A stretch of 49,625 nt of DNA from an uncultured bacterium (GCA_965371575.1 CBDUYZ010000001.1:1-49625), one strand, 5' to 3'. Counted from the first letter of the stretch, positions 1,317 through 30,704 are shown. Program-made: numbers and translations. Notes: a model not told the origin generated them from the sequence alone.

Positions 1317-1686
1317 AACAGTTTTTTTAAAAATATATATTTCTGTCCGATTTTACGAGAAAGGACAGTATTTTGATGGGATTATAATTGTGTAGAAACA
1401 AACAACATCAGAAATTTTTTTTCCACTCATAGGTAACTGATTGAATAACCGTGAATTGTCATGTTTTTGTCATGTGCCCCGTGACCACACTGTCTGGCCA
1501 GGGAGGAGGCGCGGCAGGACAGTCTTTTAATCCAAGGGAGTTATACGGGGAGGTGCTGGAAAAATATTTCGTTGATCCAAGACGAACTGGACCGATAGGA
1601 TTACCATGACAATTAAATAACCGCATCGAATAATGAAATAACAATGGGCGCGACCAGTGGCGCCTGATCGAAGGGTTGCTGAAGCG

Positions 1687-2682
1687 ATGAATCCCCACCG
1701 TACCTTCAGCCGGATATTGATGGTTCCGTTGGCACTAGCCTTGCTACTGGCTTTGCTGCTGTCGGCCGCCGCTGCGGGTGAGGCTCCGATCCGCATCCCG
1801 TTTACGGTGTACGGCATCGACGCTGCCCGACCGTTCAAGGCGCCGCGGGGGCTGTTTTGCGACCACGGCCAGGACGAGATCCTGGTCGCTGATCCCGGCA
1901 GCAGCCGGGTGATTATTTTCGACGGCGAGGGGTGGCCCAAGTACGAATTCATCCATTGGATCGAGCGCGACGGCGAACGTCTGCAGGGTGAGCCATGCGC
2001 CGTGGCGGTGACTCCTGCCGGCAACATTTTCTTGGTTGATGTGCTGAGTCCGGATCTTTCCATCCTGGATTTCCGTGGACAGCCTCTCAACCGCCTGACT
2101 CCGGACGAACTGCTTCCCGGGGAGGATGAGGTGACACTGTCTGCCTGCCTGGCGGCGGGACCGGAAGGCCACATTTACGCAGTCGGCCATTCATCCGGGG
2201 GCCACAGCCTCATCGAGATGATGCCCAGCGGCGAAGTTGTGGCCAGGGTTCCTCTCGGGCAGACCGACGATCTGGTGCAGGTCACGGGTCTTGCCGTCGA
2301 TGCGCAACGGATCTACGTGTCCGACCTGTCCGCCGCGGCCTGTGTGCAGGTATTCGATCGCCAGGGCCGGCGGGAATTGGCCTTCGGCATCCACGACGCC
2401 GGGTGGGGCAACTTCTCCCTGCCGGCGTCCATCGCCGTGACTTCGGAGGGGCATATGTGGGTGGTCGACCAGATTCGACAAATCGTCAATCATTTCGACG
2501 CCGAGGGTCACTTCCTCGGCTTCATAGGTGGCAGCGGGTTCGGCCCCGGCTCCATGAAATATCCCTGCGCCGTCGCAACTGACCGGACGGATCGGGTCAT
2601 GGTGCTGGAAAAGGTCGGACGGCGGCTCCAGGCTTTTGTCCTGCCGGAAGGGGGTGGTCCGGCCGGGAAAGCCGGTGCCTGA
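1687..2682 (+). CDS. secreted NHL-repeat beta-propeller protein
   Basis: ATG 1687 gives a signal peptide MNPHRTFSRILMVPLALALLLALLLSAAAAGEA. The body has repeated ~45-aa blades of the type P.G...D.....V.D....RV..FD..G, e.g. GLAVDAQRIYVSDLSAAACVQVFDRQG and SIAVTSEGHMWVVDQIRQIVNHFDAEG. The alternative GTG start at 1657 is less likely. Confidence 0.7.
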   Translation: MNPHRTFSRILMVPLALALLLALLLSAAAAGEAPIRIPFTVYGIDAARPFKAPRGLFCDHGQDEILVADPGSSRVIIFDGEGWPKYEFIHWIERDGERLQGEPCAVAVTPAGNIFLVDVLSPDLSILDFRGQPLNRLTPDELLPGEDEVTLSACLAAGPEGHIYAVGHSSGGHSLIEMMPSGEVVARVPLGQTDDLVQVTGLAVDAQRIYVSDLSAAACVQVFDRQGRRELAFGIHDAGWGNFSLPASIAVTSEGHMWVVDQIRQIVNHFDAEGHFLGFIGGSGFGPGSMKYPCAVATDRTDRVMVLEKVGRRLQAFVLPEGGGPAGKAGA

Positions 2683-2736: not shown

Positions 2737-3720
2737 GTGAAAAAGCTACTCATCCTTACAGTCCTGGTACTTGTGATCGCTTTTGCCGGCGTGGCCATTG
2801 CCGGCGACTTTCACTCCGGATCATCCCTGATCTGCTCGCAGTGCCACATAATGCACGCCAGCCAATCCCACAGCTACGTGGCCAATCAAGCTTTTACACC
2901 AGCTGTTCTTACTCCCCACGTGCGCCTGCTGAAGGAAACAGCCAACGATCTCTGTCTGTCCTGCCACGATGGCAGCCCCTCAATCACCGATGTCTTCGAA
3001 ATTCCTTCCGACGGCGTCGTGCGTGCTGCCGGCGGGTTGAACAACGCGGGCACCGTGGCTGGATTGTACCACCAGGACAATGGTCATTCCCTGGGTTCGA
3101 TCGACCAGGCGCCGGGCGGTACCTTCGAAAACACGGCGGGCCTGAATTGCACAGACTGCCATAATGCGCACGGCTACGCGGACGGCGTCGGTAACCCGTG
3201 GCGTAATCTCGTCGCGGTCGATGTCTCCAGCAATTTGTTTTACATGACCTACAACACCGGCGCCGTCGACCCTGCCTTCGACGTCACCCAGGCGGTCGTC
3301 CGCGACTACGTGTGGAGCAACTTGACGTTCAACAAGACCACCGCCTCTCCTTTGACGTCCGCCTATGCCGATTATTGCAAAGCCTGCCACACCGATTTCC
3401 ATGGTGCAGTCGGCTCGGCCGAGATCGGTGGTACTGTGGCCGCAGGTGACTTCATTCGCCACCCGGCGGCTGAGGTTCTCATCGGCGCCATTGGCGGTGG
3501 ACATTCGAATGCAGGGGTCTACGGCAGCCACGCCAACCAAGTGCTGGTCCAGATCGACGGTACGGATCTGACGCCGTCCTGCTTCAGCTGCCACAAGGGC
3601 CACGGCAACCAGAACCCCTTCGGTCTCATCTTCATGGAAGGTGGCGGGGCGGCGGTTGACGAAGAGGGCGATGGCGGCGCCGGGGTCCAGGACCTCTGCG
3701 GCCAGTGCCACGTGCAGTAA
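2737..3720 (+). CDS. secreted hexahaem c-type cytochrome
   Basis: GTG start preceded by GGAGG, and signal peptide MKKLLILTVLVLVIAFAGVAIAG. There are six CXXCH motifs: CSQCH, CLSCH, CTDCH, CKACH, CFSCH and CGQCH. The last sits at the extreme C-terminus. Confidence 0.9.
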   Translation: MKKLLILTVLVLVIAFAGVAIAGDFHSGSSLICSQCHIMHASQSHSYVANQAFTPAVLTPHVRLLKETANDLCLSCHDGSPSITDVFEIPSDGVVRAAGGLNNAGTVAGLYHQDNGHSLGSIDQAPGGTFENTAGLNCTDCHNAHGYADGVGNPWRNLVAVDVSSNLFYMTYNTGAVDPAFDVTQAVVRDYVWSNLTFNKTTASPLTSAYADYCKACHTDFHGAVGSAEIGGTVAAGDFIRHPAAEVLIGAIGGGHSNAGVYGSHANQVLVQIDGTDLTPSCFSCHKGHGNQNPFGLIFMEGGGAAVDEEGDGGAGVQDLCGQCHVQ

Positions 3721-3758: not shown

Positions 3759-3782
3759 TGGGATGGGGGTGTTCCCCCATCC
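3759..3782 (+). terminator. GC-rich hairpin between the two small cytochrome genes (attenuator or weak terminator)
   Basis: Perfect 10-bp stem GGGATGGGGG / CCCCCATCCC with loop TGTT, followed by TGATTCTT, which is only a weak U-tract. Confidence 0.4.
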
Positions 3783-3933
3783 CTGATTCTTGGCGGGTCA
3801 GGCCCAAAGCTAGGCGATCGCCATCCTTATTGTTTGGTATTTAACAATCCTCCGGGACTGTGATAAAGTCATGATGCATATCGCGCCCCCTGCGTACAGG
3901 GCATCGACAAAAATTTGTTTCCGGAGAAAGATC

Positions 3934-5094
3934 ATGCTCATTCGCTTACGACTGTTTCGGGCAGGATTCATCACAGGCCTGCTCCTGGTCGCGGTAACGC
4001 CGGACCGGATTCCCGCCCAGATCCCCGGTACACATGACGATCCGCAGTATGGAGTCAATAGGGTGGTTACGGTCCCGTCCACACGCGGCTCCTGCGTGCA
4101 ATGTCACGATACGCATGCCATGGAGAGCGGTGCGGTGACCGGCGTGGAACCGGTCCTGTTCCGCGCCAACGAAAATGGCCTCTGCTTCGATACCTCGGGT
4201 GTTGGGGGATGTCACAACGAACCGGCTGTCAACTACCCGTTGCTCGATACGGAGTTCATGCCGGAATTCTCGCCATATCCCGGTTACCCCGAGGCCAACG
4301 CCGGCGGTGATTATACCTACGGCGTGGAAATGCGTGGACGTTGGCCGGGTTCCAGTGTCTACGAGAACAGTGGTCAGTACCTGGGCCGCGATTTCTCACC
4401 CCACTACATCGACAGCGATATGCCCCAGCAGGACAGCCAGGGCGCGGGTATGTGCCTGAACTGCCATTCTCCCCACGACACGGACAACCCGTTCGACCAG
4501 CTGACCGCAATGTACACAAACATCGGCGGACACGCCGATTTCGGCACTCCGCCGAACCAGCAGCTGTGTTTCGATTGCCACGGGCCCGACGGGCCTGCCG
4601 GCATGAACGGTTCCGGCAGGCTGATCGCCGACTATTTCGACGAGAGCGTGAATCCCGGGACGGCCGGTCACCAGATCCGGCGCAATTCCGAGATCGCCCT
4701 TTCCTGGCCGGCCTCGGTCCAGGTCGGGGACAAGCTGCCCTGCTACCTTTGTCACAATCCCCACGGCTCCCGGGGAGCCAGCGGTGCTTCTCCCAATACC
4801 TTCGTGCTCAACGACGCCCGCCCGGGTTGGGACGGCATATTGGACCCCACGGGAAGTGCCCTCGATTCCCGGGCCGTGTGTTTCGGGTGTCACATTCCGT
4901 CCGACGGTGTGCCGGGCTCGCGCGTAGTGATGGGGATCGTCATGAACACCATCCCCAGCAAGGGTGCCCATAAAACGTCCGCCGCCCAGAATTGTGCCAA
5001 AACTCACGGTGACTTATACGACACGCCTACGAGCATCAACATCCACAACATTACCACCAAATCCGCTTTGAGCCCGGAAGAATTCTGGAAATGA
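3934..5094 (+). CDS. secreted pentahaem c-type cytochrome (plus one non-canonical CX8CH candidate site)
   Basis: ATG 3934 is preceded by GGAGAAAG, and the hydrophobic leader is MLIRLRLFRAGFITGLLLVAV. CXXCH motifs: CVQCH, CLNCH, CFDCH, CYLCH, CFGCH. The extra site is CFDTSGVGGCH. The stop overlaps the next start (ATGA at 5091-5094). Confidence 0.85.
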   Translation: MLIRLRLFRAGFITGLLLVAVTPDRIPAQIPGTHDDPQYGVNRVVTVPSTRGSCVQCHDTHAMESGAVTGVEPVLFRANENGLCFDTSGVGGCHNEPAVNYPLLDTEFMPEFSPYPGYPEANAGGDYTYGVEMRGRWPGSSVYENSGQYLGRDFSPHYIDSDMPQQDSQGAGMCLNCHSPHDTDNPFDQLTAMYTNIGGHADFGTPPNQQLCFDCHGPDGPAGMNGSGRLIADYFDESVNPGTAGHQIRRNSEIALSWPASVQVGDKLPCYLCHNPHGSRGASGASPNTFVLNDARPGWDGILDPTGSALDSRAVCFGCHIPSDGVPGSRVVMGIVMNTIPSKGAHKTSAAQNCAKTHGDLYDTPTSINIHNITTKSALSPEEFWK

Positions 5095-6752
5095 CCAGTG
5101 TTTGGCGCAACCGGTCGCTCGGGTCTTTCAATCTCCGCTTTTTCCCGCTTTCCCTTTTCCTGTGGTGTGTTTTGGCCGGGTTACCCCTTGCAGCCGAAGC
5201 GTCCCAGACTTCCGGGCGCATCCGTCTGAACTACCACGAGTCCACCATCAGGGGAGACGTATCCAGCCAACTTTTTCAGGAATACCGTGTCTCGAGCCAG
5301 GACCGCATCTTCGGTTCCAATATGCTTCGTCTCGATCTGCGCTGGGATCGCATCGTCGACTACGCCTATCCTCAGGCTGTCGATCGACCGGTCTTGCGCG
5401 CCACGCTGACCGGGCTGGCCTATGACTTCACCCTGCGTTACACTCCTTCCCAGTACGCTACGCCCGCGGGACGGGTGACGGGCTCCAAACTGGAGGGGCT
5501 ACAGGCCGCCTGGCGGTTCCAACATGATGGTTTGCCCGGCCTGAGACTGGAATATCGCGATGACAAGCGACACCAGGCCCAGTTCAATTTCAACACCTTT
5601 TCGTCGGTGGCCCGGATGCGGTTGGCCGAGTTGGATCATCGGGTGGGGATGCTTCGCTTCGGGGCTTCCTATCGCCAGAACGACAACACCAGCACAGCCG
5701 CCACCGCTGGTGACCGGACTGCCGGGACGACCACCCTGAGGGTAGTGGTGGACAAGGCCGTCACGCCCGCCTTGCGCGTCAGCCTCGGGGGTGACGTCCA
5801 GCGGACCGAGGTTTCGCAAGATCCATCCCCGGACACCGTCAGCCGCACCCGCAATCTGCGTGGCAGCGCGGTCATGAGATTGACCCCCCGGCTGCGGATC
5901 GGTGTTACCGGGTTTTTCCGGGAAATGCTCAACGAGGGTGGAGGTCGTCCGTCCCTGCTTGACGTGAATCGGACCTTCTCGACACGCGCCGTTTTCATAC
6001 CGACGGAGGAACTGGATCTGAGCCTTCAGCGTGAAATCAGGGATCTGAACCGGCCGGCGGGCTATTCCTACTACGACGTCCTGCGGATGCAGGCGATCTA
6101 TTCAGGACGGTTGCGCAGAGGATTGCGCGCCCGCCTGACCGGCATGAAATACGTGACTATCAAGACACAGAACGCAGGTACTCCCGCCGATGCCACCGAC
6201 CTCACCCTGCATTTCCAACTCTACCGTCGGACAACGGCCCGGGCTTCGCTGACGTACAACCGGCAACAGCACCGCGATAGTGAATTCCTGAGCCGTCACG
6301 CCGTGAACAAGGTCGCCGAGGTGAAGTCCCAGCTGACCCGGCGACTGCTGGTCAGGCTCGATTACCGGGGATCCCAGACCTCCAGAGCCTTCGAGTTCCT
6401 TGAGATTGACTCCCACAACTACTCCGCGAATCTCAACTACACCAATTCGGGGGGATTCTCTTTGTCCGGGAGCGTGCGAAAGTCGATATTGAAGGAAGAG
6501 GAAAACAGGAGCCAGACCTTCTTCGGCTTGAACATGGCCGGCCGTCTTACAGCGAAATTTACCTTCAATCTGGACGGCACCTGGACCCAACACACGGTTT
6601 CCGAACTGGGTGAGCGCGCCTCGGGCTACAATGCCCGGCTGTATTATCGTTTCAGCAACAGGACTTTCTTGACGGCAAACTACCAGACCTCCGAACGGGA
6701 TGGTGAGAGAGAAAGCGACTCCTTCGGAGCATCTTTTCAGACCGCATTCTGA
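5091..6752 (+). CDS. outer-membrane beta-barrel protein (porin-like partner of the cytochromes)
   Basis: Signal peptide ...FLWCVLAGLPLAAEASQ. The whole length shows alternating hydrophobic/polar beta-strand periodicity with Y/N/R-rich hairpins (YSANLNYTNSGG, LLVRLDYRGSQ, YNARLYYRFSNR). The C-terminus ...SFGASFQTAF ends in Phe, the usual OMP signature. There is no CXXCH. Confidence 0.7.
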   Translation: MTSVWRNRSLGSFNLRFFPLSLFLWCVLAGLPLAAEASQTSGRIRLNYHESTIRGDVSSQLFQEYRVSSQDRIFGSNMLRLDLRWDRIVDYAYPQAVDRPVLRATLTGLAYDFTLRYTPSQYATPAGRVTGSKLEGLQAAWRFQHDGLPGLRLEYRDDKRHQAQFNFNTFSSVARMRLAELDHRVGMLRFGASYRQNDNTSTAATAGDRTAGTTTLRVVVDKAVTPALRVSLGGDVQRTEVSQDPSPDTVSRTRNLRGSAVMRLTPRLRIGVTGFFREMLNEGGGRPSLLDVNRTFSTRAVFIPTEELDLSLQREIRDLNRPAGYSYYDVLRMQAIYSGRLRRGLRARLTGMKYVTIKTQNAGTPADATDLTLHFQLYRRTTARASLTYNRQQHRDSEFLSRHAVNKVAEVKSQLTRRLLVRLDYRGSQTSRAFEFLEIDSHNYSANLNYTNSGGFSLSGSVRKSILKEEENRSQTFFGLNMAGRLTAKFTFNLDGTWTQHTVSELGERASGYNARLYYRFSNRTFLTANYQTSERDGERESDSFGASFQTAF

Positions 6753-6786: not shown

Positions 6787-7365
6787 ATGGCCAAGTCATT
6801 GAAATCTGCACTAGTCCTCTGGACTGCGGCGCTCTGCACCGTTGCCGGTTGCAGTTCGCCTCCCGTTTTCATCGAACCGGCGGCGGACCTCGACTTCTAC
6901 GAGCGGGTTGCGGTCACACCCTTCTGGGCCTCCAGTGCTGATCGGTCCGCCAGCGACCAGGTCACTGACGCTTTCGTGACGGCCCTGATGATTTCCGAAA
7001 AATACGAGGTCGTCGAGCCCGGGCTCTTTCGGCACCTTTTGGCGGAAATTGCCGACCAAGCCAGTTCCACCCATCGCGGACTGACCCCCCAGCAGGTTCA
7101 GGAATTGGGTACGAAGGCCGAGGTGCAGGCTGTCTTCGAGGGTACGATCCTGACCTACGAGATGACCCGAATCGGCCAGAACCAGTACCCTCTCATCTCG
7201 GTGGAACTGAGAATGCTCGACGCCCAGACCGGTCGGCTGGTCTGGGCGATGACACTGACCCGCAAGGGGGGGCCCGGGTTCCCCTTCTTCGGCTTCGGCC
7301 AGACGCGCACACTGCCCGAACTGGCCGCCAAGGTCGTGGACGAGTTCGTCGCGGGGGTGCCCTGA
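6787..7365 (+). CDS. lipoprotein, non-haem (LpoB/PelC/TolB-N-like sequence pattern)
   Basis: ATG 6787 follows GAGGAAGGAAAT. Lipobox LCTVAG|C. The motif VAVTPFWASSADRSASDQVTDAFVTALMISEKYEVVEP resembles the VAVLPF.N.S pattern of small OM-associated lipoproteins. The fold assignment is inference. Confidence 0.65.
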   Translation: MAKSLKSALVLWTAALCTVAGCSSPPVFIEPAADLDFYERVAVTPFWASSADRSASDQVTDAFVTALMISEKYEVVEPGLFRHLLAEIADQASSTHRGLTPQQVQELGTKAEVQAVFEGTILTYEMTRIGQNQYPLISVELRMLDAQTGRLVWAMTLTRKGGPGFPFFGFGQTRTLPELAAKVVDEFVAGVP

Positions 7366-7366
7366 C

Positions 7367-7960
7367 ATGGCGGCCCGAAGGCGTCCATTCATGAGCTGGC
7401 CATTGCCGGTCCTGTTGCCGCTGTTTGGCGCGCTGGTCCTGCTGGCGGGCTGCGGGGCGGGTGTTCGTCACCACGCGGTACATGATTTCCCGGGCGACCG
7501 GCCTTATCGCTTGGCGCTGTTGCCCCTGACCAACCTGACTACTGATCCAAGCGCCGCCGACGTGCTCAGTTCCGCTCTGGCGGTCGAGTTGCTGGGCGTA
7601 CCGGAGTTCGCCGTCGTGGACGTGGTCGCGGTCAACTCGGTCCTCAGCCGCCATCGGATCCGCTATGCGGACCGGATGAACACGGAGCAGTTCATGGTCC
7701 TGGGCCGGGAACTGGCTGTCGACGGTGTTCTGGTCGGCGCCGTCTATGCGTTTGAATACCGCCAGGAGCAGGAAGGCCCTGTTCCCCTGGTCTCCATGCA
7801 CGCGCGGATCATAGACGTGGCCGATGGCCGTATCCTCTGGGTGGCGGAGCAGACCCGCACCGGTACGGATGGTGAATTCATCTTGGGCATCGGTTTTGAA
7901 AAATCCCTTACGAGGCTTGCTTCCCGCGTGGCCGGCGAGATCGTGGAGACCTTGCGCTGA
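7367..7960 (+). CDS. lipoprotein, paralogue of the preceding gene
   Basis: Lipobox VLLAG|C. LALLPLTNLTTDPSAADVLSSALAVELLGVPEFAVVD parallels the motif of the 6787 gene. The start lies 1 nt after the previous stop. The alternative ATG at 7391 is also compatible with the signal peptide. Confidence 0.65.
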   Translation: MAARRRPFMSWPLPVLLPLFGALVLLAGCGAGVRHHAVHDFPGDRPYRLALLPLTNLTTDPSAADVLSSALAVELLGVPEFAVVDVVAVNSVLSRHRIRYADRMNTEQFMVLGRELAVDGVLVGAVYAFEYRQEQEGPVPLVSMHARIIDVADGRILWVAEQTRTGTDGEFILGIGFEKSLTRLASRVAGEIVETLR

Positions 7961-7974
7961 AAGGTGATATTCTG

Positions 7975-8451
7975 ATGAAGGTCAAATCCTGGTTGTGGGT
8001 CCTTTTCCTGCTGACTGTGCCTGTCCCGGGTCTAGCCGAAACCGTGAAGGCTCCGGCAGTGGAATCCCCGCACGAGCCGACGACCATTACCGTGATCGTC
8101 AGGCATCGGGTGGCGGCGTCCTTTGCGGACACTCTGGAAGTCGTCTGGGGGACCGGTGAACAGTACTGGATCGGTGATACCGAATTCAGTCTGGAAATTT
8201 CACGGTTCGTTGCCGATTTCGGCATCAGCCAGACCGGAGAAGTCATCGAGCGCAGTTCTGAAGCCCACAATCCGGCCTGCGAGGTCGTGATCTACAACGA
8301 GGGCATCGAGGAGGATCGGGTCTGGGCGTTCTTCGGCACAGGGTCTCCGCATTTCCGGCGCGAGTCCATGCTGGCCGTGGACATGATCTCCTTCCCCTGG
8401 CGTGGTTCCGTGCTGACCGAGCCGATTCCCCGGAAGGATGAAGTGAAATGA
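7975..8451 (+). CDS. small secreted hypothetical protein
   Basis: Signal peptide MKVKSWLWVLFLLTVPVPGLA|ETV. No haem motif. The stop overlaps the start of the 42-haem gene (ATGA at 8448-8451). Confidence 0.55.
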   Translation: MKVKSWLWVLFLLTVPVPGLAETVKAPAVESPHEPTTITVIVRHRVAASFADTLEVVWGTGEQYWIGDTEFSLEISRFVADFGISQTGEVIERSSEAHNPACEVVIYNEGIEEDRVWAFFGTGSPHFRRESMLAVDMISFPWRGSVLTEPIPRKDEVK

Positions 8452-11400
8452 GCCGCAGCAAGCTGGTCCGTTTCAATCCGTTCTGGCTCTCAGCCATGGT
8501 CCTACTGCTGGCCATGTCTTGCGCTGATCCAGGCCTGGCTGCCAAGAAACGACGTGAGTGTCTCGACTGCCACAAGAACATGAAGCAACTCAAGGAGTTG
8601 GCCCGGGTACATGAACCTTTCAACGAAGACAAGTGCCTTGATTGCCACCAGCGGCACGGGTTTGCCCAGAACCTGATCCTGAAGAGCGCCCCTCCGGAAT
8701 TGTGCGCCGAGTGTCACGCCGACCAGATGCCGAGCACCGAGGTGGCTTTCCCGCACGAGCCCGTCGCTCAGGGCTATTGCAACGCCTGCCACAACCCTCA
8801 TGCATCCGATAACTCGGCGCTCATCCGGGGCAGCACCCCGGGCGGCGCCTGCCTGCCCTGCCATCCGGTGGTCAAGGAAGCTCTCGACGGGGCGGCTGGC
8901 CACCAACCGTTCATGAACGGTGACTGCAGCGTTTGCCACAAGGCCCACGGCAGCGATCAGCCCGCTATTCTTGTTTCCCGACAGATCGACGTCTGCCTCG
9001 GGTGTCATGAAGGAATCGATCCGGTCAGCCACTTCCAAACCGGAGTGAACGACCAATCCTGCACCGCTTGCCACGATGCCCACCTCGCCACGAAAAACAA
9101 TATGTTGCGGAGTGATGCCCATCCGCCCTTTGCCGAAGGTGACTGTAGCGCCTGTCACCAGGCGAACGAGGGCAGAGCCCTTGAAGCACCTGCCGTCGCG
9201 GATCCCGCCCTCTGTTTCGAATGCCACGAGGAAATTGAAGACAGAACAGGGCTCCTTCATCCCCACGACCCGGCCCTCGACGGGTGCCTGGACTGCCATG
9301 ACGCCCATCGTTCGGGATTCCCCTTCCTGCTGACAGGAGCTCAGCGCGATGTTTGTCTGGACTGCCATGACGATCCTGCCAGCGGGGAAAATATCGGCGT
9401 GGTGCACGGGCCTGTCGTGGATGGTGACTGCGCGGCGTGTCACGATCCGCATGGCGGTGATCGCGATCTGATGCTCACGGCCGAGGGAGACGCCCTCTGT
9501 GCCCGGTGCCACGAGGATCTTCTGACAGCTGCCCGACAGGCGGTTGTTCCCCATGAGGCCCTGGACGACGGTTGCGCTGCCTGCCATCGGCCCCATGCTT
9601 CGACTGAGCCCGGCCTCCTGATCTTCAACCAGTTGGTGTTGTGTGGCGAGTGCCACGACGAAATCATCTCCGGCGCAGGAGACCATCAGCAACACGCGCC
9701 TTTCCAGGCCGGAGCCTGCCGGGAGTGCCACAATCCCCACGGGTCGGACCGCAGAGCCATGCTCGTCAAAACGGATCCGGCGGAAAATTGTGTGCGTTGC
9801 CACGCCGGTCTGGCCGCAGGTCTCAAGTCGGGCGAGGGCCACGTTCCATTCGCCGACGGGGATTGCGCCGACTGCCACGCGCCGCATTACTCGAGCCAGC
9901 AGCCGGGCCTTCTGGTCGAGCCGGTCAACACCCTGTGTGCCACATGCCACGATGATCTGGAGGGGAAGCTTTCCCGCCCGCATGTACATACGGCCATCCT
10001 CAGGGGCGCCTGCACAGACTGCCACGACCCGCACGACGCCGAGGCATCGCTGCTGCTCGTGGCCGAAACGGAGCTTTGTCTTGGTTGCCATCCGGACGTC
10101 GCGGCCGCCGTCGAGTTGGCGGTGGTGCATGAACCCGCCCGAGGCGGCGCCTGCCTGACCTGTCATGACCCTCACGGCTCGGATCAGCCCATGGGCCTGG
10201 CGGTCCCGGTGGCCCGACTCTGTGCCGAATGCCATTCCGTCGTCGACGAGGCGTTCGCCACCAGCCACGGCGGTCTGGCCGACGAAGACTCCCAGTGCAC
10301 GACCTGTCACAACCCGCACGGTTCCACCGATCCCATGCTGCTGAACCGGGTCATCCACTCGCCCTTCGCGGACAAGGACTGCGCTTCCTGTCACGATGAC
10401 TTCACCCTGGAGCAGTTCGCCGAGGAGACGGCCGGCCTCTGCGGCGAGTGTCACGACCAGCCCGACGAGTTCGCCGGCAAGAAACAGATTCACGCACCGG
10501 TTGCCGAGGGCGACTGTACGGTATGTCACGACCCCCACACCGCCCGCGGGGACCTGCTCCTGCGTGCGGATGTACCGGAGCTGTGCGCCGAGTGCCATGA
10601 CGACATCGTTAATCCCACATCCGGCGTCAAACAGCACCGCCCGGTGGAACTGGGCGGATGTCTGGACTGTCACGAATCGCACGCGGGCGATTTCCGCTCC
10701 CTGCTCAGGGATTCAGGCGACAACCTGTGCCTGGGCTGCCATGACGCGCTGAAACAACGCCTGGAAACCGGGGTCCGCCACGACCCTGTGGCCGAGGGCG
10801 ATTGTACGGCCTGCCACAACGGGCATGATTCGGCTGAGGCTGCTCTGCTCAACAAGCGCGTGCACCTGCTGTGCGCCGACTGTCACGAAGTGGCAGGTGA
10901 GGACATCATGAGCGCACACAGCGGCTTCGAGGTGGAGGGGACCGACTGCGTGACATGCCACGATCCCCATGTGTCGACCGATGACAGGGGCAAGTTCCTG
11001 CGGACCGTCAGGCACGATCCGTTCGCCGACGGCGATTGTTCATCCTGCCACGTACCGGGTAGTATTCGTGTTTCCCTGCCGGTGCCTCAGCTCTGCCTGG
11101 AATGCCACGACGAGTTCGCGGAAATCCTGGAGTCCGAGGGGCTCCACGCGGCCCTGAAGAACGAGAAATCCTGCATATCCTGTCATGCTCCCCACGCAGG
11201 TTTCGCGGGGCTGATCAACCGTTCGTCACAGAAGGAGACCTGCCTGCGTTGCCACGATCGCCAGGGCTACGAGGGCGAGTTCCGGCACGAGCCGGTCGAG
11301 GAGGCCTGTACGAATTGCCACGATCCTCACGCCGGTGAGAAGCCGTTTTTGCTGACCCTCGACATCATGGAGCTCTGCCTGCAGTGCCACGAAGTCCATC

Positions 11401-11564
11401 TCCATCCCGTGGGTGAGGAATACCAGGATCCCCGTACCGGCGGTCCGTTGACCTGCGTCAGCTGCCATACGCCCCATTCTGCGGCCGAGAAGTACCTGCT
11501 GTCCCATGAGAAGTCGCGCGCCCTGTGTGTCCAGTGCCACGTGGGCACCATGGGACCTCATTGA
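8448..11564 (+). CDS. giant multihaem c-type cytochrome, 42 CXXCH motifs (tandem paired-CXXCH / c7-like units)
   Basis: I counted 42 CXXCH motifs in the 1038-aa translation. They lie in about 21 repeats of ~48 aa with the pattern C..CH-(D/N)PH...L-C..CH.....H.P...G(D)-C..CH. The N-terminal leader ends LLAMS|C, a possible lipobox. Confidence 0.95.
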   Translation: MSRSKLVRFNPFWLSAMVLLLAMSCADPGLAAKKRRECLDCHKNMKQLKELARVHEPFNEDKCLDCHQRHGFAQNLILKSAPPELCAECHADQMPSTEVAFPHEPVAQGYCNACHNPHASDNSALIRGSTPGGACLPCHPVVKEALDGAAGHQPFMNGDCSVCHKAHGSDQPAILVSRQIDVCLGCHEGIDPVSHFQTGVNDQSCTACHDAHLATKNNMLRSDAHPPFAEGDCSACHQANEGRALEAPAVADPALCFECHEEIEDRTGLLHPHDPALDGCLDCHDAHRSGFPFLLTGAQRDVCLDCHDDPASGENIGVVHGPVVDGDCAACHDPHGGDRDLMLTAEGDALCARCHEDLLTAARQAVVPHEALDDGCAACHRPHASTEPGLLIFNQLVLCGECHDEIISGAGDHQQHAPFQAGACRECHNPHGSDRRAMLVKTDPAENCVRCHAGLAAGLKSGEGHVPFADGDCADCHAPHYSSQQPGLLVEPVNTLCATCHDDLEGKLSRPHVHTAILRGACTDCHDPHDAEASLLLVAETELCLGCHPDVAAAVELAVVHEPARGGACLTCHDPHGSDQPMGLAVPVARLCAECHSVVDEAFATSHGGLADEDSQCTTCHNPHGSTDPMLLNRVIHSPFADKDCASCHDDFTLEQFAEETAGLCGECHDQPDEFAGKKQIHAPVAEGDCTVCHDPHTARGDLLLRADVPELCAECHDDIVNPTSGVKQHRPVELGGCLDCHESHAGDFRSLLRDSGDNLCLGCHDALKQRLETGVRHDPVAEGDCTACHNGHDSAEAALLNKRVHLLCADCHEVAGEDIMSAHSGFEVEGTDCVTCHDPHVSTDDRGKFLRTVRHDPFADGDCSSCHVPGSIRVSLPVPQLCLECHDEFAEILESEGLHAALKNEKSCISCHAPHAGFAGLINRSSQKETCLRCHDRQGYEGEFRHEPVEEACTNCHDPHAGEKPFLLTLDIMELCLQCHEVHLHPVGEEYQDPRTGGPLTCVSCHTPHSAAEKYLLSHEKSRALCVQCHVGTMGPH

Positions 11565-11877: not shown

Positions 11878-11990
11878 GCTAACCTGCAACACTGGTAGGG
11901 GCAGGCGTATATTTTTTGTCCGGACAAACGTGTCCGGGCATCGGCGCAGGCTCGGCGCGTGGGAATCCGCCGGAAACCGGGACCAAGGAC

Positions 11991-14078
11991 ATGACTGCAG
12001 ACCTGAAAATGATCAGGAATATCGGGATCAGCGCGCATATCGATTCGGGCAAGACGACCCTGACCGAGCGGATCCTCTTCTACACCGGGCGCATCCGCAA
12101 CATCCACGAGGTGCGCGGCAAGGACGGCGTGGGCGCCACCATGGATTCCATGGAACTCGAGCGCGAGCGCGGCATCACCATCCAGAGCGCGGCGACCTTT
12201 ACCACGTGGAACGGGCATCACGTCAACATCATCGACACACCCGGCCACGTCGATTTCACGATCGAGGTGGAAAGGGCGTTGAAGGTCCTGGACGGGGCGA
12301 TCCTGGTGCTGTGCTCGGTGGCCGGCGTGCAGAGCCAGTCGATCACCGTCGACCGCCAGATGAAGCGCTACAACGTGCCCCGCATCGCCTTCGTGAACAA
12401 GTGCGACCGTTCCGGCGCCAATCCCGCCCGGGTCACCGAACAGCTGTGCGATAAGCTGAAACACAACGCGGTGATGATGCAGATCCCCATCGGGCTGGAG
12501 GACAAGCACGAGGGCGTGGTCGACCTGATCACCATGAAGGCCTTCACCTTCGAGGGCGAGAACGGGGAGAAGGTCGTCACCGGCGACATTCCCGCCGCCC
12601 TGCAGGTCGAGGCCGAGGCTCGCCGCGAGGCCATGCTCGACACGGTGAGCATGTTCAGCGACGTACTGATGGAGGCCATTCTGGAAGACGCGGTCACCGA
12701 GGAAATGATCCACGACGCGGTTCGCCGGGGGGTCCTGGCCAACGAGTTGACCCCGGTCTACATGGGCAGCGCCTACAAGAACAGAGGCGTGCAGCAGCTG
12801 CTCGACGCGGTCATGCGCTATTTGCCTGCGCCCACGGACATCGACAACACCGCCATCCGGATGCTGAAGGGCGGCGAGGAGGAGGAGTTCGTCCTCTCCA
12901 ACAGCCCCGCTGACGACCTGGTCTGCAACGTCTTCAAGCTGGAAGAGGGATCCTACGGTCAGCTGACCTACGTGCGCATCTACCAGGGCGTCCTCAAGAA
13001 GGGCGAGGAAATCTACAACAGCCGGACCGGCAAGAAGGTCAAGGTGGGCCGGCTGGGCCGTATGCACGCCGATCAGATGGAGGAGATCGAGAAGGCCGCC
13101 GCGGGCGACATAATCGCCCTGTTCGGGGTGGACTGCGCCAGCGGCGATACTTTCACCGGGGGCGAACGCATTTCCCTGTCCAGCATGCACGTGCCCGAGC
13201 CGGTGGTCAGCCTGGCCGTCGTGCCCGAGGACAACAAGGCCGCCGCGCAAATGTCCAAGGCCTTCCACAGGTTCACCCGGGAGGATCCCACCTTCCGGAC
13301 ATCGGTGGACTCCGAAACCGGGGACACGATCATCAGCGGGATGGGTGAATTGCACCTCGAGGTCTACATCGAGCGGATCAAGCGGGAGTTCAACGCGGTA
13401 GTCACAACCGGGGCGCCCCAGGTGAAGTACCGCGAGACGATCACCCAGGCCATCCGGTTCGACTACACCCATAAGAAGCAGACGGGCGGCTCGGGCCAGT
13501 ACGCCAAGGTTCAGGGCACCATGGAACCCAGCGAGGACGGCCAGTTCCACTTCGAGAGCAAGGTTGTCGGCGGTCGCATTCCCACCGAGTACATCGGCGC
13601 CTGTCGGAAGGGTTTCGAGTTTTCCATCCTCGCGGGTCAGTACATCGGAGCCCCGGTCCAGGGTTTGAAGGTGACCCTGCTCGATGGGAATTCCCACGCG
13701 GTGGACTCCTCGGACATGGCCTTCCAGACGGCCTGCCGTGCGGCCTTCCGCGAGTTCTATCGCCAGGGCAAGCCGGCGGCCCTTGAGCCGTTGATGCTGG
13801 TGTCCATCGAAGGGCCCAGCGAGTACCAGGGCGAAATCATCAAGACCCTGATGCAGCGGCGGGGCGTGATCGTGGGTACCACCGAGGACGAGGGGTTCGT
13901 CAGGGTCGATGCGAACGTGCCCCTGGCCGAGATGTTCGGTTACGCCACGGTCTTGCGTTCCTCGACCCAGGGCAAGGCCGAGTTCACCATGGAGTTCGCC
14001 AGGTACGCGCCGGCCCCCGGTGAGGTGGCCGAGGAACTGGTCAAGGAATTCCTGGAGAACAGGGCCGCAGGCAAATAA
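11991..14078 (+). CDS. fusA: elongation factor G family GTPase (stand-alone paralogue, not in an rpsL-rpsG-fusA context)
   Basis: ATG 11991 follows AAGGA. G-domain motifs [17 protein letters not shown] and NKCD are present, with full-length EF-G architecture (695 aa). The longer ORF from 11916 has no support. Confidence 0.9.
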
Positions 14079-25576: not shown

Positions 25577-25753
25577 ATGGGCTTGGTGAAAAAGTTCTGG
25601 TTGTTGTGGGTTTCGCTGGGCGCGGTCGTTCTGGGCTTCGTCACCCTGGCCGCCGGTATGCTGACGATCGGACCGGTTCTGCTGGTTCTCGGCTATTGCG
25701 TCTTGTTGCCTTTCTTTTTGTGGCGTTCATTCCAGGATAGCGTGGGCGAATAG
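25577..25753 (+). CDS. small (58 aa) two-TM membrane protein, hypothetical
   Basis: ATG follows GGAGGGAAAG and the profile is strongly hydrophobic (LLWVSLGAVVLGFVTLAAGMLTIGPVLLVLGYCVLLPFFLW). The last 10 nt overlap the 5' end of tRNA-Val, which lowers confidence. Confidence 0.4.
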   Translation: MGLVKKFWLLWVSLGAVVLGFVTLAAGMLTIGPVLLVLGYCVLLPFFLWRSFQDSVGE

Positions 25754-25820
25754 TTCAGTTGGCTAGAACGCCTGCTTTACACGCAGGAGGTCACAGGTTC
25801 GAGTCCTGTTTCGCCCACCA
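25744..25820 (+). tRNA. tRNA-Val (anticodon UAC), CCA encoded
   Basis: Manual cloverleaf: acceptor GGGCGAA/UUCGCCC, D arm GUUC-AGUUGGCUA-GAAC, anticodon arm CCUGC-UUUACAC-GCAGG, variable loop AGGUC, T arm ACAGG-UUCGAGU-CCUGU, discriminator A plus CCA. Total 77 nt. Confidence 0.95.
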
Positions 25821-26109: not shown

Positions 26110-26787
26110 ATGGTTCTTAGGAAATTCATGGGTATTTTCGCAATTACCCTGATTATTGGTGCCGCTTCACTCGCCATGGCGGGTGTTCCGGACGTGGAGA
26201 ATTGCACTTCTTCCCGGGCCTACACTGGTCCTGAGAAGTTGATGTTACTGGTTGTGCCTGGTGGCTTTGCTGACGCAACGTTCGAGACAGCCTGGGTCTT
26301 TATCACTCCTAATGGAAGTGCTCAGCCTCAGGTAACCCAAGACGCCACCATCTCGGTGACGGTCAAGGATGGCGCGCTTCCGGTCCCCCAGATCATCGAA
26401 TTATATCCCTTCGAGGATATTTGGTTGGTCTGCCCCGGTGTGGGTGCCGAACTCGGACTTATGCCTTGTGCCGGCGGCAACAGCGCAGATTTCGCCACCG
26501 ATGAAATTGGCTATACTGAGTTCAATAACCCGGTGACGGGTGGCGGACAAAGTACCGGAGCCACATCGGTTGTTATCAACGGCAACGCCCTGCCCAACAC
26601 CGTAGACGTCGGCTACCTCAGCCCTGATATTAATGGCGATGGACTTGTGGATCTCGTCGATTTTCAGCAATTCGTGGTTGACTTCACAGGGACGTACAAT
26701 TTCCAAAGCGATTACTTCTACGACGGAGTCGTGGACCTGATCGACTTCCAGAAATTTGCATCCTGGTTCGCATGGGGCTGCATCTAG
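26110..26787 (+). CDS. secreted protein with C-terminal dockerin-like duplicated Ca-binding repeat
   Basis: GGAGG RBS and signal peptide ...IIGAASLAMA|G. The C-terminus carries two related segments, DINGDGLVDLVDFQQFVVDF and DYFYDGVVDLIDFQKFASWF, which fit the dockerin/EF-hand-like D.N.DG..D..D pattern. Codon usage is AT-richer than in neighbouring genes. Confidence 0.6.
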   Translation: MVLRKFMGIFAITLIIGAASLAMAGVPDVENCTSSRAYTGPEKLMLLVVPGGFADATFETAWVFITPNGSAQPQVTQDATISVTVKDGALPVPQIIELYPFEDIWLVCPGVGAELGLMPCAGGNSADFATDEIGYTEFNNPVTGGGQSTGATSVVINGNALPNTVDVGYLSPDINGDGLVDLVDFQQFVVDFTGTYNFQSDYFYDGVVDLIDFQKFASWFAWGCI

Positions 26788-26954: not shown

Positions 26955-27551
26955 ATGAAGAAGTTGTTAGTAATTTTGATGGCAAGTCTGATCGCAACCT
27001 CGGCTTTCGCAGTCATTGATCCTGATCCTAGTTCGATTGGGATCTACTTCGACGAAACCGCCGATGTGAATTGCTTGGATTTTGTCGGTGGGGCGTTGAA
27101 CATATACGTCGTTTGGACCTCACCCCTCATTCCTGCGTTTTTAGGCTATGAGTTTGGGTATTTCATGGACATCGAAGCAGGTGCGTCAATTTTCATGTCA
27201 CAAACCCTTCTGTTCAACGGAGTGACTGAGGGCTTTGACATATTTTCCGGTCAAACAGAGGTAGAGGGTAGTCATGCTGTGGTGTGCGTCGACCCTGTGC
27301 CGACTGGGCCAGCTACGATTATCCATGCGTGGGTGTACCAGATTTTCTCCCCTGGCTACATGAAATGTTTCATCTTCCAGAGCGAGACAATGGGCGGTAC
27401 ATTGCCGCAGGTTCTGGGCACGGAAGAAGATCTGCATCAGCTCAATCAGTCGACCGGCGGCTGGGATGTTCCCGTCGCTACGCTGAACACTAGTTGTGTT
27501 GTGGATAATGAGGAAGCCAGCTTCGGCAGCGTGAAGAGCTTGTTCCGGTAA
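26955..27551 (+). CDS. secreted hypothetical protein, paralogue A, with SFGSVKSLFR C-terminal tail (possible cohesin-like beta-sandwich)
   Basis: AAGGAG RBS and signal peptide MKKLLVILMASLIATSAFA. It shares the blocks IGIYFD / LGYEF and the extreme C-terminal motif with the 29849 gene. Confidence 0.7.
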   Translation: MKKLLVILMASLIATSAFAVIDPDPSSIGIYFDETADVNCLDFVGGALNIYVVWTSPLIPAFLGYEFGYFMDIEAGASIFMSQTLLFNGVTEGFDIFSGQTEVEGSHAVVCVDPVPTGPATIIHAWVYQIFSPGYMKCFIFQSETMGGTLPQVLGTEEDLHQLNQSTGGWDVPVATLNTSCVVDNEEASFGSVKSLFR

Positions 27552-30605: not shown

Positions 30606-30634
30606 TTGACCCGGATCCCATTCGGTCCTATAAT
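30606..30634 (+). promoter_or_regulatory. near-consensus sigma70 promoter of the C25 peptidase gene
   Basis: TTGACC (30606-11), an exactly 17-nt spacer, then TATAAT (30629-34). This argues against the TTG 30606 and ATG 30633 ORF starts. Confidence 0.6.
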
Positions 30635-30704
30635 GAAAGTACGCCCAACCGCGCCGTACCTGCCCCTGATCGGCCAATCAGCAACTTCTGTCCGGGAGAC
30701 CAGA

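What the first reader, a model, noticed from the sequence alone, without database searches (positions are those of the whole stretch)
8448..11564. 42-haem cytochrome built from about 21 tandem paired-CXXCH units, all apparently bis-His
I count 42 CXXCH motifs in 1038 aa, about one haem per 25 residues. They are organised as a ~48-aa unit: C..CH-(D/N)PH-~14 aa-L-C..CH-~10 aa-H.P-~6 aa-G(D). Each unit supplies two extra conserved His (the xPH and H.P positions) for its two haems. This implies bis-His low-potential haems throughout, a continuous haem-wire design reminiscent of polymerised c7-type domains. The leader ends LLAMS|C, so it may be lipid-anchored. At this size the protein could span the periplasm or thread a barrel.
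Basis: seen in the sequence. Interest (0 to 1): 0.7.

Follow-up and report, generated by a model that had tools for sequence, protein, structure and literature searches.

The report
Fused 42-haem periplasmic cytochrome wire
This gene encodes a real 42-haem protein "wire" that joins two known giant cytochromes (26 and 16 haems) into one chain and sits in a gene cluster for OmcS-type extracellular cytochromes; its haem count is almost perfectly conserved across distant bacteria, but its role is untested.

Summary
ORF 8448-11564(+) encodes 1038 aa with exactly 42 CXXCH motifs, arranged as 21 Paired_CXXCH_1 (PF09699) domains. All 85 cysteines are in haem motifs except Cys25. Exactly 42 conserved extra histidines and no conserved methionine fit all-bis-His ligation.

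It is not a polymer of c7 domains. The only significant match to a solved structure is MtrA, the haem wire of the Shewanella Mtr complex. It is also not an orphan: 77 of 78 full-length homologues, mostly from FCB-group phyla, also have 42 motifs. In a Desulfuromonas MAG the same protein is split into adjacent 26-haem and 16-haem genes that align haem-for-haem with haems 1-26 and 27-42. This matches the "26-haem + 16-haem" pair of Skennerton 2017; the Geobacter OscI/OscJ (GSU2495/2494) equivalence rests on literature only.

The conserved cluster also holds an OmcS-like hexahaem cytochrome, a pentahaem cytochrome, an outer-membrane beta-barrel, two CsgG/LpoB/PelC-like lipoproteins and an NHL propeller.

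Best reading: a periplasm-crossing electron wire feeding an outer-membrane, OmcS-type extracellular cytochrome system. The function is inferred, not shown. The lipobox is not conserved. It is a new (fused) variant of a known kind, of moderate interest.

The parts
1657..2682 (+). NHL-repeat six-bladed beta-propeller protein with a signal peptide; first gene of the conserved cluster
   Evidence: Pfam NHL E=1.3e-9. Orthologues occupy the same position in L001, L004 and L043. A propeller is a core gene of the Skennerton 26+16-haem operon.
2737..3720 (+). OmcS-like hexahaem cytochrome (327 aa, 6 CXXCH, signal peptide AIA|GDFHSG)
   Evidence: 6 CXXCH. The mature N-terminus FHSGSSLICSQCHIMHAS aligns from residue 1 of OmcS 6ef8_A (FHSGGVAECEGCHTMHNS), E=0.0096 for a 60-aa query. 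The G-D-[FY]-H-x-G...CxxCHxMH motif, six haems and a C-terminal LCxQCHxQ are conserved in 5 orthologues. The full-length phmmer search found no PDB hit, so membership is weak.
3760..3783 (+). Strong GC-rich hairpin (10 bp stem) just after the OmcS-like gene; possible attenuator between this gene and the downstream genes
   Evidence: Terminator-like scan. A promoter-like site lies at 3841-3869. These are consensus matches only.
3871..5094 (+). Pentahaem cytochrome (about 387-407 aa, depending on the start codon) with a signal peptide; its stop overlaps the barrel gene's start
   Evidence: 5 CXXCH. Weak MtrC/OmcA-type hits. 47-71% orthologues in L001, L003 and L043; the same-position cytochrome in L004 was not matched by tblastn and has 9 CXXCH.
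5091..6752 (+). Probable large outer-membrane beta-barrel (553 aa, signal peptide, C-terminal ...SFQTAF)
   Evidence: Weak OMP_b-brl hit, E=4e-4. The terminal Phe is conserved in 5 of 6 cluster orthologues. The AF2 model is low confidence (pLDDT 48, 4 sequences) but all-beta with 22 long strands. Foldseek hits are exclusively large OM barrels at low TM (~0.2). There is no TM helix. The family is narrow: 18 representatives of 529-559 aa.
6787..7365 (+). CsgG/LpoB-like lipoprotein (lipobox VAG|C)
   Evidence: Pfam CsgG E=1.8e-8. The lipobox is visible in the translation. The orthologue in L003 hits LpoB, and the one in L005 hits LpoB, CsgG and GNA1162.
7367..7960 (+). PelC/GNA1162-like lipoprotein (lipobox LAG|C)
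   Evidence: PDB sequence hits to PelC: 5t11_A E=6.2e-6 and 9h80_C E=1.1e-4. The L001 orthologue carries PF05643 GNA1162-like.
7975..8451 (+). Small secreted protein (158 aa) of unknown family; its stop overlaps the ATG of the 42-haem gene (ATGA)
   Evidence: No Pfam or NCBIfam hit. Conserved immediately upstream of the 42-haem gene in L001, L003, L004 and L043.
8448..8540 (+). Signal peptide of the 42-haem protein (aa 1-31), with Cys25 in a lipobox-like LAMS|C and a signal-peptidase-I-type GLA|AKK site
   Evidence: Sequence. Comparison of N-termini.
8559..9212 (+). Module 1: haems 1-9 (aa 38-255)
   Evidence: The module ends at a motif with no following His (haem 9). The junction spacing of 28/23 is conserved. 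pLDDT dips at residues 191-250.
9213..10439 (+). Module 2: haems 10-26 (aa 256-664). Its end matches the C-terminus of the separate 26-haem protein in Desulfuromonas sp. BM513
   Evidence: Haem-for-haem alignment with L005 8998-10932. There is no His after haem 26 in 53 of 53 orthologues.
10440..11093 (+). Module 3: haems 27-35 (aa 665-882). Its start matches the N-terminus of the separate 16-haem protein
11094..11564 (+). Module 4: haems 36-42 (aa 883-1038) plus the stop codon. Contains the conserved H-x-H-P-x-G-x4-DPRTG motif, which resembles the C-terminal end of MtrA
   Evidence: Conserved columns H984, H986, G989, D994 and P995. The MtrA C-terminus CLNCHSQVHGSNHPSG is seen. This module has lower pLDDT (60-75).

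Best explanation
The gene encodes a Sec-exported, haem-packed electron wire with about 24 residues per haem. It consists of 21 doubled-CXXCH domains arranged in four modules of 9+17+9+7 haems, probably all bis-His, with the elongated MtrA-type fold. It is the single-chain (fused) form of the adjacent 26-haem and 16-haem cytochromes known from Desulfuromonadales, Geobacter and SEEP-SRB1 (OscI/GSU2495 and OscJ/GSU2494 of the omcS-companion cluster). It is co-transcribed, with overlapping stop and start codons, with an OmcS-like hexahaem cytochrome, a pentahaem cytochrome, an outer-membrane beta-barrel, two CsgG/LpoB/PelC-like lipoproteins and an NHL propeller. The most likely function is to carry electrons across the periplasm, between inner-membrane or periplasmic donors and the outer-membrane channel with its OmcS-type extracellular cytochromes. 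The N-terminal 26 haems would cover the periplasmic gap, and the C-terminal 16 haems would reach or enter the outer-membrane assembly. Shown here: the anatomy, the homology, the fusion/fission relationship, the conserved gene context and the conserved haem number. Inferred: localisation, bis-His ligation, overall length, orientation, partners and direction of electron flow.
For: The protein has 42 CXXCH motifs and 21 PF09699 domains. Each of 53 orthologues has 42 non-motif His, and there is no conserved Met. The AF2 model has pLDDT 82, and its only significant PDB fold match is MtrA 6r2q_A (E=2e-6, TMt 0.58 over 249 columns). The sequence search also hits MtrA (E=5e-16). 77 of 78 full-length homologues carry 42 motifs, and all 42 are column-aligned in 2226 of 2226 cells. 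In L005 the homologue is split into a 26-haem lipoprotein plus a 16-haem protein. These align 1:1 with haems 1-26 and 27-42 at 37-38% identity. Literature supports the link: the propeller + 16-haem + 26-haem + PPIase operon (PMC5539420), GSU2495 as the 26-haem OscI and GSU2494 as OscJ within the GSU2500-2493 block linked to OmcS maturation and secretion (PMC12977616; PMC13194489). The gene order is conserved in L001, L003 (Latescibacterota), L004 (Eisenbacteria) and L043. Cluster partners include an OmcS-like N-terminus, a PelC-like lipoprotein and barrel indications. A Kdo transferase in the window indicates a diderm host. For length, a published review finds haem number and length linearly related, with ~27 haems needed for a ~200 A periplasm (PMC7096707). 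My extrapolation gives about 190 A for 26 haems, 120 A for 16 and 310 A for 42.
Against: There is no experimental evidence for function. Skennerton et al. state that the 26/16-haem homologues have no known physiological role and were not expressed during metal respiration in several cultured species. No inner-membrane quinol dehydrogenase is encoded in the cluster. I had no access to model coordinates, so the overall shape and length are extrapolated, and the pLDDT dips at module junctions could be hinges or kinks. Related proteins with 26-38 haems in other arrangements exist, so 42 is not universal. The PPIase of the Desulfuromonas/Geobacter-type cluster is absent here. I could not align directly to GSU2495/GSU2494, and the key paper (Shen et al. 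2025) was not held. Another published model charges OmcS filaments through small triheme Ppc cytochromes instead (PMC10954620, title and abstract only).
Confidence: 0.6

Rival explanations
1. It is a true porin-cytochrome conduit of the MtrAB type. The C-terminal 16-haem part threads the 553-aa barrel and contacts the small cytochromes on the cell surface, so one polypeptide links the inner-membrane face to the exterior. The barrel would then be a sheath for the wire, not a secretion pore.
For: The fold match is to MtrA, and TIGR03508 (DmsE/MtrA family) scores 440 bits. A barrel gene lies in the same operon. The extrapolated length of ~310 A exceeds a ~200 A periplasm by roughly the length MtrA needs to cross the outer membrane. 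The C-terminal HxHP motif resembles the barrel-inserted end of MtrA. The C-terminal module has lower pLDDT, as expected for a segment that is ordered by a partner.
Against: The barrel has no detectable similarity to MtrB/PioB, with no Pfam hit at E<=0.001 apart from a weak generic OMP domain. The barrel model is low confidence, so its lumen size is unknown. The accompanying CsgG/LpoB/PelC-like lipoproteins point to an export funnel, as in PelBC. The literature attributes secretion, not conduction, to OscEFG.
Confidence: 0.3
2. The protein is itself exported through the cluster's outer-membrane channel and acts as an extracellular or surface-attached monomeric nanowire.
For: The OmcS-like protein in the same cluster also has only a Sec signal and would need this machinery for export. 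Some homologues are lipoproteins, as are surface cytochromes such as MtrC and OmcB. The closest relative's cluster also encodes a 979-aa multihaem protein with a T9SS Por_Secre_tail, so extracellular cytochromes are part of this system.
Against: The 42-haem protein has no T9SS C-terminal domain. Its fold class (MtrA) is periplasmic or barrel-inserted. Geobacter OscI and OscJ are listed as periplasmic. Skennerton et al. inferred a periplasmic location.
Confidence: 0.1
3. It acts mainly as a periplasmic electron store (capacitor) or redox buffer holding up to 42 electrons, with no fixed geometry or dedicated partners.
For: Haem density is very high and all haems look low-spin bis-His. No catalytic site is evident and no inner-membrane partner is encoded nearby.
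Against: Storage alone would not explain an exactly conserved number and order of 42 haems, conserved junction spacings, or 26+16 adding up to the same total. It would also not explain the tight, translationally coupled linkage to outer-membrane components.
Confidence: 0.1
4. One reading: a polymer of triheme cytochrome c7 domains like Geobacter GSU1996.
For: PF14522 Cytochrome_C7 gives 150 bits in 9 stretches.
Against: Those hits lie under the far stronger PF09699 signal (674 bits). The c7 equivalog NF043011 scores 17.5 against a cutoff of 120. The period is two haems per ~48 aa, not three per ~75 aa. There is no conserved Met for the His-Met haem of c7-type polymer domains. No c7-type structure appears in the fold search.
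Confidence: 0.03

Closest known systems
26-haem + 16-haem cytochrome pair of Desulfuromonadales, Geobacter, Anaeromyxobacter and SEEP-SRB1 (Skennerton et al. 2017); in G. sulfurreducens OscI (GSU2495) and OscJ (GSU2494) of the omcS-companion (osc) cluster (Shen et al. 2025)
   Same: The Desulfuromonas pair (L005) matches haem-for-haem at 37-38% identity. The domain type is the same, and the NHL propeller neighbour is present. CsgG/LpoB-like lipoproteins, a barrel and OmcS-sized cytochromes lie nearby. The split point falls exactly at a module junction of the window protein.
   Different: Here the two proteins are one polypeptide. No PPIase gene is in the cluster. The hosts appear to be FCB-group bacteria rather than Desulfobacterota. 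The N-terminal lipid anchor common in the 26-haem proteins is mostly absent. Gene order also differs. The Geobacter sequences themselves were not compared.
MtrA/DmsE/PioA/MtoA decahaem cytochromes (PDB 6R2Q chain A)
   Same: MtrA is the only significant structural and sequence match in the PDB. It shares the doubled-CXXCH building block, the elongated haem chain and a similar C-terminal HxxHP-type ending. That MtrA is all bis-His is my recollection, not a tool result.
   Different: The window protein has 42 haems rather than 10, so it is about four times longer. The partner barrel is not detectably MtrB/PioB-like. The gene context is OmcS/osc-type rather than mtrCAB.
PCC3 periplasmic multihaem cytochromes of Fe(II) oxidisers (He et al. 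2017)
   Same: Both involve very haem-dense, repeat-built periplasmic cytochromes (median 21 haems) encoded next to a porin and extracellular cytochromes. Both have been proposed to bridge the two membranes.
   Different: PCC3 clusters carry a conserved 5-TM di-haem-b inner-membrane protein, and no such gene is seen in this cluster. PCC3 haem numbers vary widely, whereas here 42 is fixed. Homology was not tested.
GSU1996-type c7-domain polymers
   Same: Both are long chains of low-potential c-type haems built by domain repetition.
   Different: The repeat unit differs (triheme c7 domains with one His-Met haem). The family model is not matched.

Membership tests
Paired_CXXCH_1 (PF09699 / TIGR01905) multidomain cytochromes | Match to the doubled-CXXCH domain model above the curated cutoff | tested here: met
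   PF09699 674 bits against a cutoff of 20.6, in 21 stretches. TIGR01905 627 bits against 25.2, in 21 stretches.
26-haem + 16-haem pair (OscI/OscJ type) | Collinear, haem-for-haem homology to an adjacent 26-haem and 16-haem gene pair | tested here: met
   L005 (Desulfuromonas sp. BM513): 26/26 and 16/16 motifs align to haems 1-26 and 27-42 at 37-38% identity.
26-haem + 16-haem pair (OscI/OscJ type) | Core operon partners: six-bladed beta-propeller and peptidyl-prolyl isomerase (Skennerton 2017) | tested here: inconclusive
   An NHL propeller is present at 1657-2682. No PPIase is found in the cluster or among the window ORFs scanned. PPIase-cytochrome fusions exist among homologues P0080 and P0119.
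26-haem + 16-haem pair (OscI/OscJ type) | Direct sequence orthology to G. sulfurreducens GSU2495 and GSU2494 | not tested
The link rests on the literature.
osc / omcS-type nanowire cluster | An OmcS-family hexahaem cytochrome encoded in the cluster | tested here: inconclusive
   Six haems. The N-terminal 60 aa best match OmcS 6ef8_A from residue 1 (E=0.0096), including the CxxCHxMH His. The motif is conserved in 5 orthologues.
MtrA/DmsE decahaem family (TIGR03508) | Decahaem protein of ~300 aa matching the family model end to end | tested here: not met
   The score of 440 bits exceeds the cutoff of 192, but it is spread over 9 partial stretches of a 42-haem, 1038-aa protein. The fold is similar only locally.
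MtrA/DmsE decahaem family (TIGR03508) | Adjacent MtrB/PioB-type porin | tested here: not met
   The 553-aa barrel candidate has no MtrB_PioB hit, only a weak generic OMP_b-brl match at E=4e-4.
Cytochrome c7 / c7-domain polymers | Match to the c7 equivalog model; triheme unit with a His-Met haem in polymer domains | tested here: not met
   NF043011 scores 17.5 bits against a cutoff of 120. The period is two haems, and no Met column reaches 50% conservation.
All-bis-His multihaem wire | One distal His per haem, shown by structure or spectroscopy | not testable with these tools
   The count fits: 42 conserved non-motif His for 42 haems in all 53 orthologues. Which His ligates which haem needs a haem-loaded model or spectroscopy.
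Bacterial lipoproteins | Lipobox Cys at the end of the signal peptide, conserved in orthologues | tested here: inconclusive
   The window has LAMS|C25. The closest relative L043 has Ile at that position. Only 6 of 75 orthologues with 42 haems are lipobox-like. An alternative GLA|AKK cleavage site is present.
PCC3 (He et al. 2017) | Conserved ~300-aa 5-TM inner-membrane protein with two WX3HX13H motifs in the cluster | tested here: not met
   All eight cluster genes have a signal peptide or lipobox at the N-terminus. A hydropathy scan for TM helices was run only on the barrel protein. No candidate 5-TM protein lies between 1657 and 11564.

The most novel reading that the evidence does not exclude
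The 42-haem chain is a molecular ruler. Its haem number is held fixed, whether the chain is encoded as one gene or as 26+16, because the wire must exactly bridge the distance from the inner-membrane surface, through a ring of PelC/CsgG-like lipoproteins and the barrel, to the base of an OmcS-type extracellular filament. A single polypeptide of about 30 nm would then be a hard-wired trans-envelope conductor, removing the need for diffusing periplasmic shuttles.
Probability: 0.25. Interest if true: 0.8.

Novelty: new variant of a known kind. Interest (0 to 1): 0.5.

Why it matters
How electrons cross the ~20 nm periplasm, and how extracellular cytochrome filaments are charged, is still debated. 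The competing ideas are diffusing small cytochromes and fixed wires.

This protein gives three useful handles. First, the fusion works as a Rosetta-stone argument that the 26-haem and 16-haem proteins (OscI and OscJ), whose roles are unassigned in the literature I could read, act end to end as one wire. Second, the almost invariant total of 42 haems across distant phyla makes a length constraint testable. Third, it shows that an OmcS/osc-type cluster exists, in rearranged form, in uncultivated FCB-group lineages (Zixibacteria, Latescibacterota, Krumholzibacteria, Eisenbacteria, Gemmatimonadota). This suggests extracellular electron exchange of this type well outside the Desulfobacterota.

If the protein proves to be only another periplasmic multihaem cytochrome, the finding is a routine annotation improvement. 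Public records currently call it 'cytochrome c3 family protein'.

Tried and rejected
(1) The c7-polymer reading was rejected on model scores, repeat period and the lack of conserved Met.
(2) A recent tandem duplication was rejected. TRF finds nothing, only motif-level DNA similarity remains, and unit identity is ~30%.
(3) Equating the cluster with OetABI (Murali 2023) was rejected, because that is a different conduit with 11-12-haem OmcX-type partners.
(4) An exact-sequence look-up of the 42-haem protein failed. The contig was found instead through the barrel protein.
(5) A genome scan with the alignment failed for lack of conserved stretches. The single-protein scan gave L004 and L005 plus many unrelated multihaem loci.
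(6) Two searches to widen the barrel family returned only 4 proteins. The barrel AF2 model is therefore poor (pLDDT 48), and its Foldseek hits (TM ~0.2) show only the class 'large OM barrel'.
(7) Host taxonomy was not determined. The cluster look-up returned no names, and the window is not among the GTDB representatives scanned.
(8) Searches for '42 haem' literature found nothing relevant.
(9) Shen et al. 2025 could not be read. My recollection of its abstract (OscH as a prolyl-isomerase chaperone, OscEFG as channel-like, OscD as beta-propeller-like) is from memory only. If OscD is the homologue of the 553-aa protein, my barrel assignment would conflict with their description. This is unresolved.
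(10) Full-length PDB sequence searches with the two small cytochromes and the CsgG-like protein gave nothing significant.

Full report
**1. Observation**

The ORF at 8448-11564 (+) is real, with an ATG start and 1038 aa. A recount gives exactly 42 CXXCH motifs and no variant motifs. Spacings mostly alternate 25 and 23 residues. The protein has 85 Cys, of which 84 are in motifs and one is Cys25 in the leader. Even with this extreme composition, chance predicts only 0.6 motifs.

Pfam PF09699 (Paired_CXXCH_1) matches 21 times (E=2e-208), and TIGR01905 matches 21 times. At DNA level there is no tandem array. Only 60-85% motif-level similarity remains, at spacings that are multiples of ~144 nt. Units within the protein are ~30% identical. 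The repeats are therefore ancient, not a recent expansion or an assembly artefact.

**2. Haem ligation**

I aligned 53 full-length orthologues (A1). All 42 motifs are column-aligned in 2226 of 2226 cells, and even the odd spacings are conserved.

- 39 non-motif His columns are at least 90% conserved. The other three (H195, H900, H984) are alignment-shifted but present in every sequence.
- The pattern is one His after most motifs, two after haems 8, 25, 34 and 40, and none after haems 9, 26 and 35.
- That gives 42 distal-His candidates for 42 haems. No Met column is conserved.

This fits all-bis-His ligation numerically. Assigning each His to a haem needs a haem-loaded structure. The 'no-His' motifs divide the chain into four modules of 9, 17, 9 and 7 haems. 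AF2 confidence dips at those junctions.

**3. Fold and family**

AF2 on A1 gave pLDDT 82 and pTM 0.55. The only significant PDB fold match is MtrA of the Shewanella MtrCAB complex (6r2q_A, E=2e-6, TMt 0.58 over 249 columns). MtrA is also the best sequence hit in the PDB (E=5e-16). The DmsE/MtrA model TIGR03508 scores 440 bits, but in nine partial stretches. The cytochrome c7 equivalog is far below its cutoff, at 17.5 against 120. So the wire is MtrA-like and about four times longer. It is not a c7 polymer.

**4. Relatives and the fusion**

A database search found about 78 full-length homologues of 986-1090 aa at 33-45% identity. Where named, they come from Zixibacteria, Latescibacterota, Krumholzibacteria, Gemmatimonadaceae and 'FCB group' MAGs, and all are annotated only as 'cytochrome c3 family protein'. 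77 of the 78 have exactly 42 CXXCH. The exception, and the 64%-identical relative in L043, each differ by a single residue in one motif.

A second class has 26 haems and covers ~60% of the query. In Desulfuromonas sp. BM513 (L005) the homologue is two adjacent, overlapping genes: a 26-haem lipoprotein and a 16-haem protein with its own signal peptide. They align one-to-one with haems 1-26 and 27-42 at 37-38% identity. The break falls exactly at the module 2/3 junction.

This is the 'six-bladed propeller + 16-haem + 26-haem + PPIase' operon that Skennerton et al. described in SEEP-SRB1, Desulfuromonadales, Geobacter and Anaeromyxobacter. They found 'no known physiological function', although the proteins were detected in seep metaproteomes (PMC5539420). 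In G. sulfurreducens the 26-haem protein is GSU2495 (about 70 kDa, 26 haems). [quoted passage not shown] GSU2495 and GSU2494 are named oscI and oscJ, with OscH assigned to folding, OscE/F/G to secretion and OscD to filament morphology (PMC13194489 citing Shen et al. 2025). I could not read Shen et al. and could not align to the Geobacter sequences, so that last link rests on the literature.

**5. Gene context**

The genes run in the same direction, and two junctions have ATGA stop/start overlaps (5091-5094 and 8448-8451). The cluster contains:

- an NHL propeller (1657-2682);
- a hexahaem cytochrome (2737-3720);
- a pentahaem cytochrome (3871-5094);
- a 553-aa protein (5091-6752);
- two lipoproteins (6787-7365 and 7367-7960);
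- a 158-aa secreted protein (7975-8451);
- the 42-haem gene (8448-11564).

This order is conserved in L001, L003 (a complete Latescibacterota genome), L004 (Eisenbacteria) and L043.

The hexahaem protein's mature N-terminus (FHSGSSLICSQCHIMHAS) aligns from residue 1 of OmcS (FHSGGVAECEGCHTMHNS; E=0.0096 for a 60-aa query). The motif, the six haems and a C-terminal LCxQCHxQ are conserved in five orthologues. The second His of the CxxCHxMH motif corresponds, from my memory of the OmcS structure, to the His that ligates a haem of the next subunit. This match is suggestive, not proof.

The 7367-7960 lipoprotein matches PelC (5t11_A E=6e-6, 9h80_C E=1e-4). From my own knowledge, PelC is the ring-forming funnel under the PelB export barrel. 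The 6787-7365 lipoprotein is CsgG/LpoB-like.

The 553-aa protein is probably a large outer-membrane barrel:

- It has a signal peptide and no TM helix.
- The C-terminal Phe is conserved in 5 of 6 cluster orthologues.
- It has a weak OMP_b-brl hit.
- The AF2 model is all-beta with 22 long strands, but has low confidence.
- Foldseek hits only large OM barrels, at low TM.

A Kdo transferase elsewhere in the window indicates a diderm host. No inner-membrane quinol oxidoreductase is in the cluster.

**6. Mechanism**

A published review reports a linear relation between haem number and length. It estimates that about 27 haems are needed to cross a ~200 A periplasm, and that MtrA alone reaches only ~30 A into it (PMC7096707). 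Extrapolating, which is my inference, gives about 190 A for 26 haems, 120 A for 16 and 310 A for 42.

The most economical reading is a fixed electron wire. The N-terminal 26 haems would cover the periplasmic gap, and the C-terminal 16 haems would reach or enter the outer-membrane assembly serving the OmcS-like cytochromes. The fusion argues that the two halves work end to end. The near-invariant total argues for a length or geometry constraint. Whether the wire threads the barrel (MtrAB-like), or the barrel with its PelC-like ring is an export channel for the OmcS-like protein (as the Osc literature suggests), is not resolved. The direction of electron flow is also unknown.

**7. Lipid anchor**

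The window has a lipobox-like LAMS|C25, but the 64%-identical relative has Ile at that position. Only 6 of 75 orthologues with 42 haems are lipobox-like. Nearly all have an AxA|(A/Q)K.C site, and the window has GLA|AKK. Lipoboxes are more common in the 26-haem class (5 of 16, plus L005). So N-terminal anchoring seems to come and go in this family. For this protein I cannot tell.

**8. Verdict**

The protein belongs to a family already noted in the literature, so it is not categorically new. However, I did not find the fused 42-haem form, its distribution in FCB-group phyla or the strict conservation of the haem count described in the searchable literature. No role for these proteins appears established. 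I rate it a new variant of a known kind, with interest 0.5.

Noticed in passing
window 27713-29461: Group II intron. Rfam D1-D4 hits lie at 27733-27904 and 27939-28019, followed by an RT/maturase ORF at 28055-29461 (RVT_1 + GIIM). It sits in a low-GC stretch (0.53 against ~0.61) downstream of a tRNA at 25744-25817, next to two ORFs with no family (26110-26787, 26955-27551). This may be a small mobile-element island.
   Followed up: partly
window 30606-35153: A 1515-aa protein with a Peptidase_C25 (gingipain-type) domain. A similar giant C25 protein lies just upstream of the orthologous cytochrome cluster in the Latescibacterota genome (L003 1-3166). This fits an FCB-group host with T9SS-type surface proteins.
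   Followed up: no
L043 16723-19662: In the closest relative's cluster, the 42-haem gene is followed by a 979-aa cytochrome. It has 22 CXXCH counted on the stop-to-stop frame, a Por_Secre_tail (T9SS sorting domain) and a FlgD_ig domain, so it is a candidate T9SS-secreted extracellular multihaem cytochrome. The window has EF-G at this position instead.
   Followed up: partly
P0080, P0119: Homologues exist in which SurA-like/PPIase domains are fused to a 26- or 23-haem Paired_CXXCH cytochrome. This suggests the cluster's PPIase (OscH type) may serve the giant cytochrome itself, which has dozens of conserved His-Pro and Pro-His positions.
   Followed up: no
window 3760-3783 and 3841-3869: A strong GC-rich hairpin lies right after the OmcS-like gene, followed by a promoter-like site before the pentahaem gene. 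This layout could give higher expression of the putative filament subunit than of the downstream machinery.
   Followed up: no
window 11916-14078: A full-length EF-G gene (TIGR00484, 921 bits) lies directly downstream of the cytochrome cluster, outside any visible ribosomal-protein (str) operon context. It is possibly a second EF-G paralogue.
   Followed up: no
window 8502-10682 (-): A 726-aa antisense ORF lies inside the 42-haem gene, and several other long overlapping ORFs occur in the region. They have no support and are most likely by-products of the high-GC sequence.
   Followed up: no
L043 (haem 23) and P0025 (haem 12): Two orthologues each have one degenerate motif (YRVCH and CQDGH in place of CxxCH). 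These are either MAG sequencing errors or rare single-thioether or lost haem sites.
   Followed up: partly
window 42746-43699 (-) and 43726-45168 (-): A radical SAM/SPASM protein lies next to a Kdo transferase (WaaA). The latter indicates LPS and therefore a diderm envelope.
   Followed up: no
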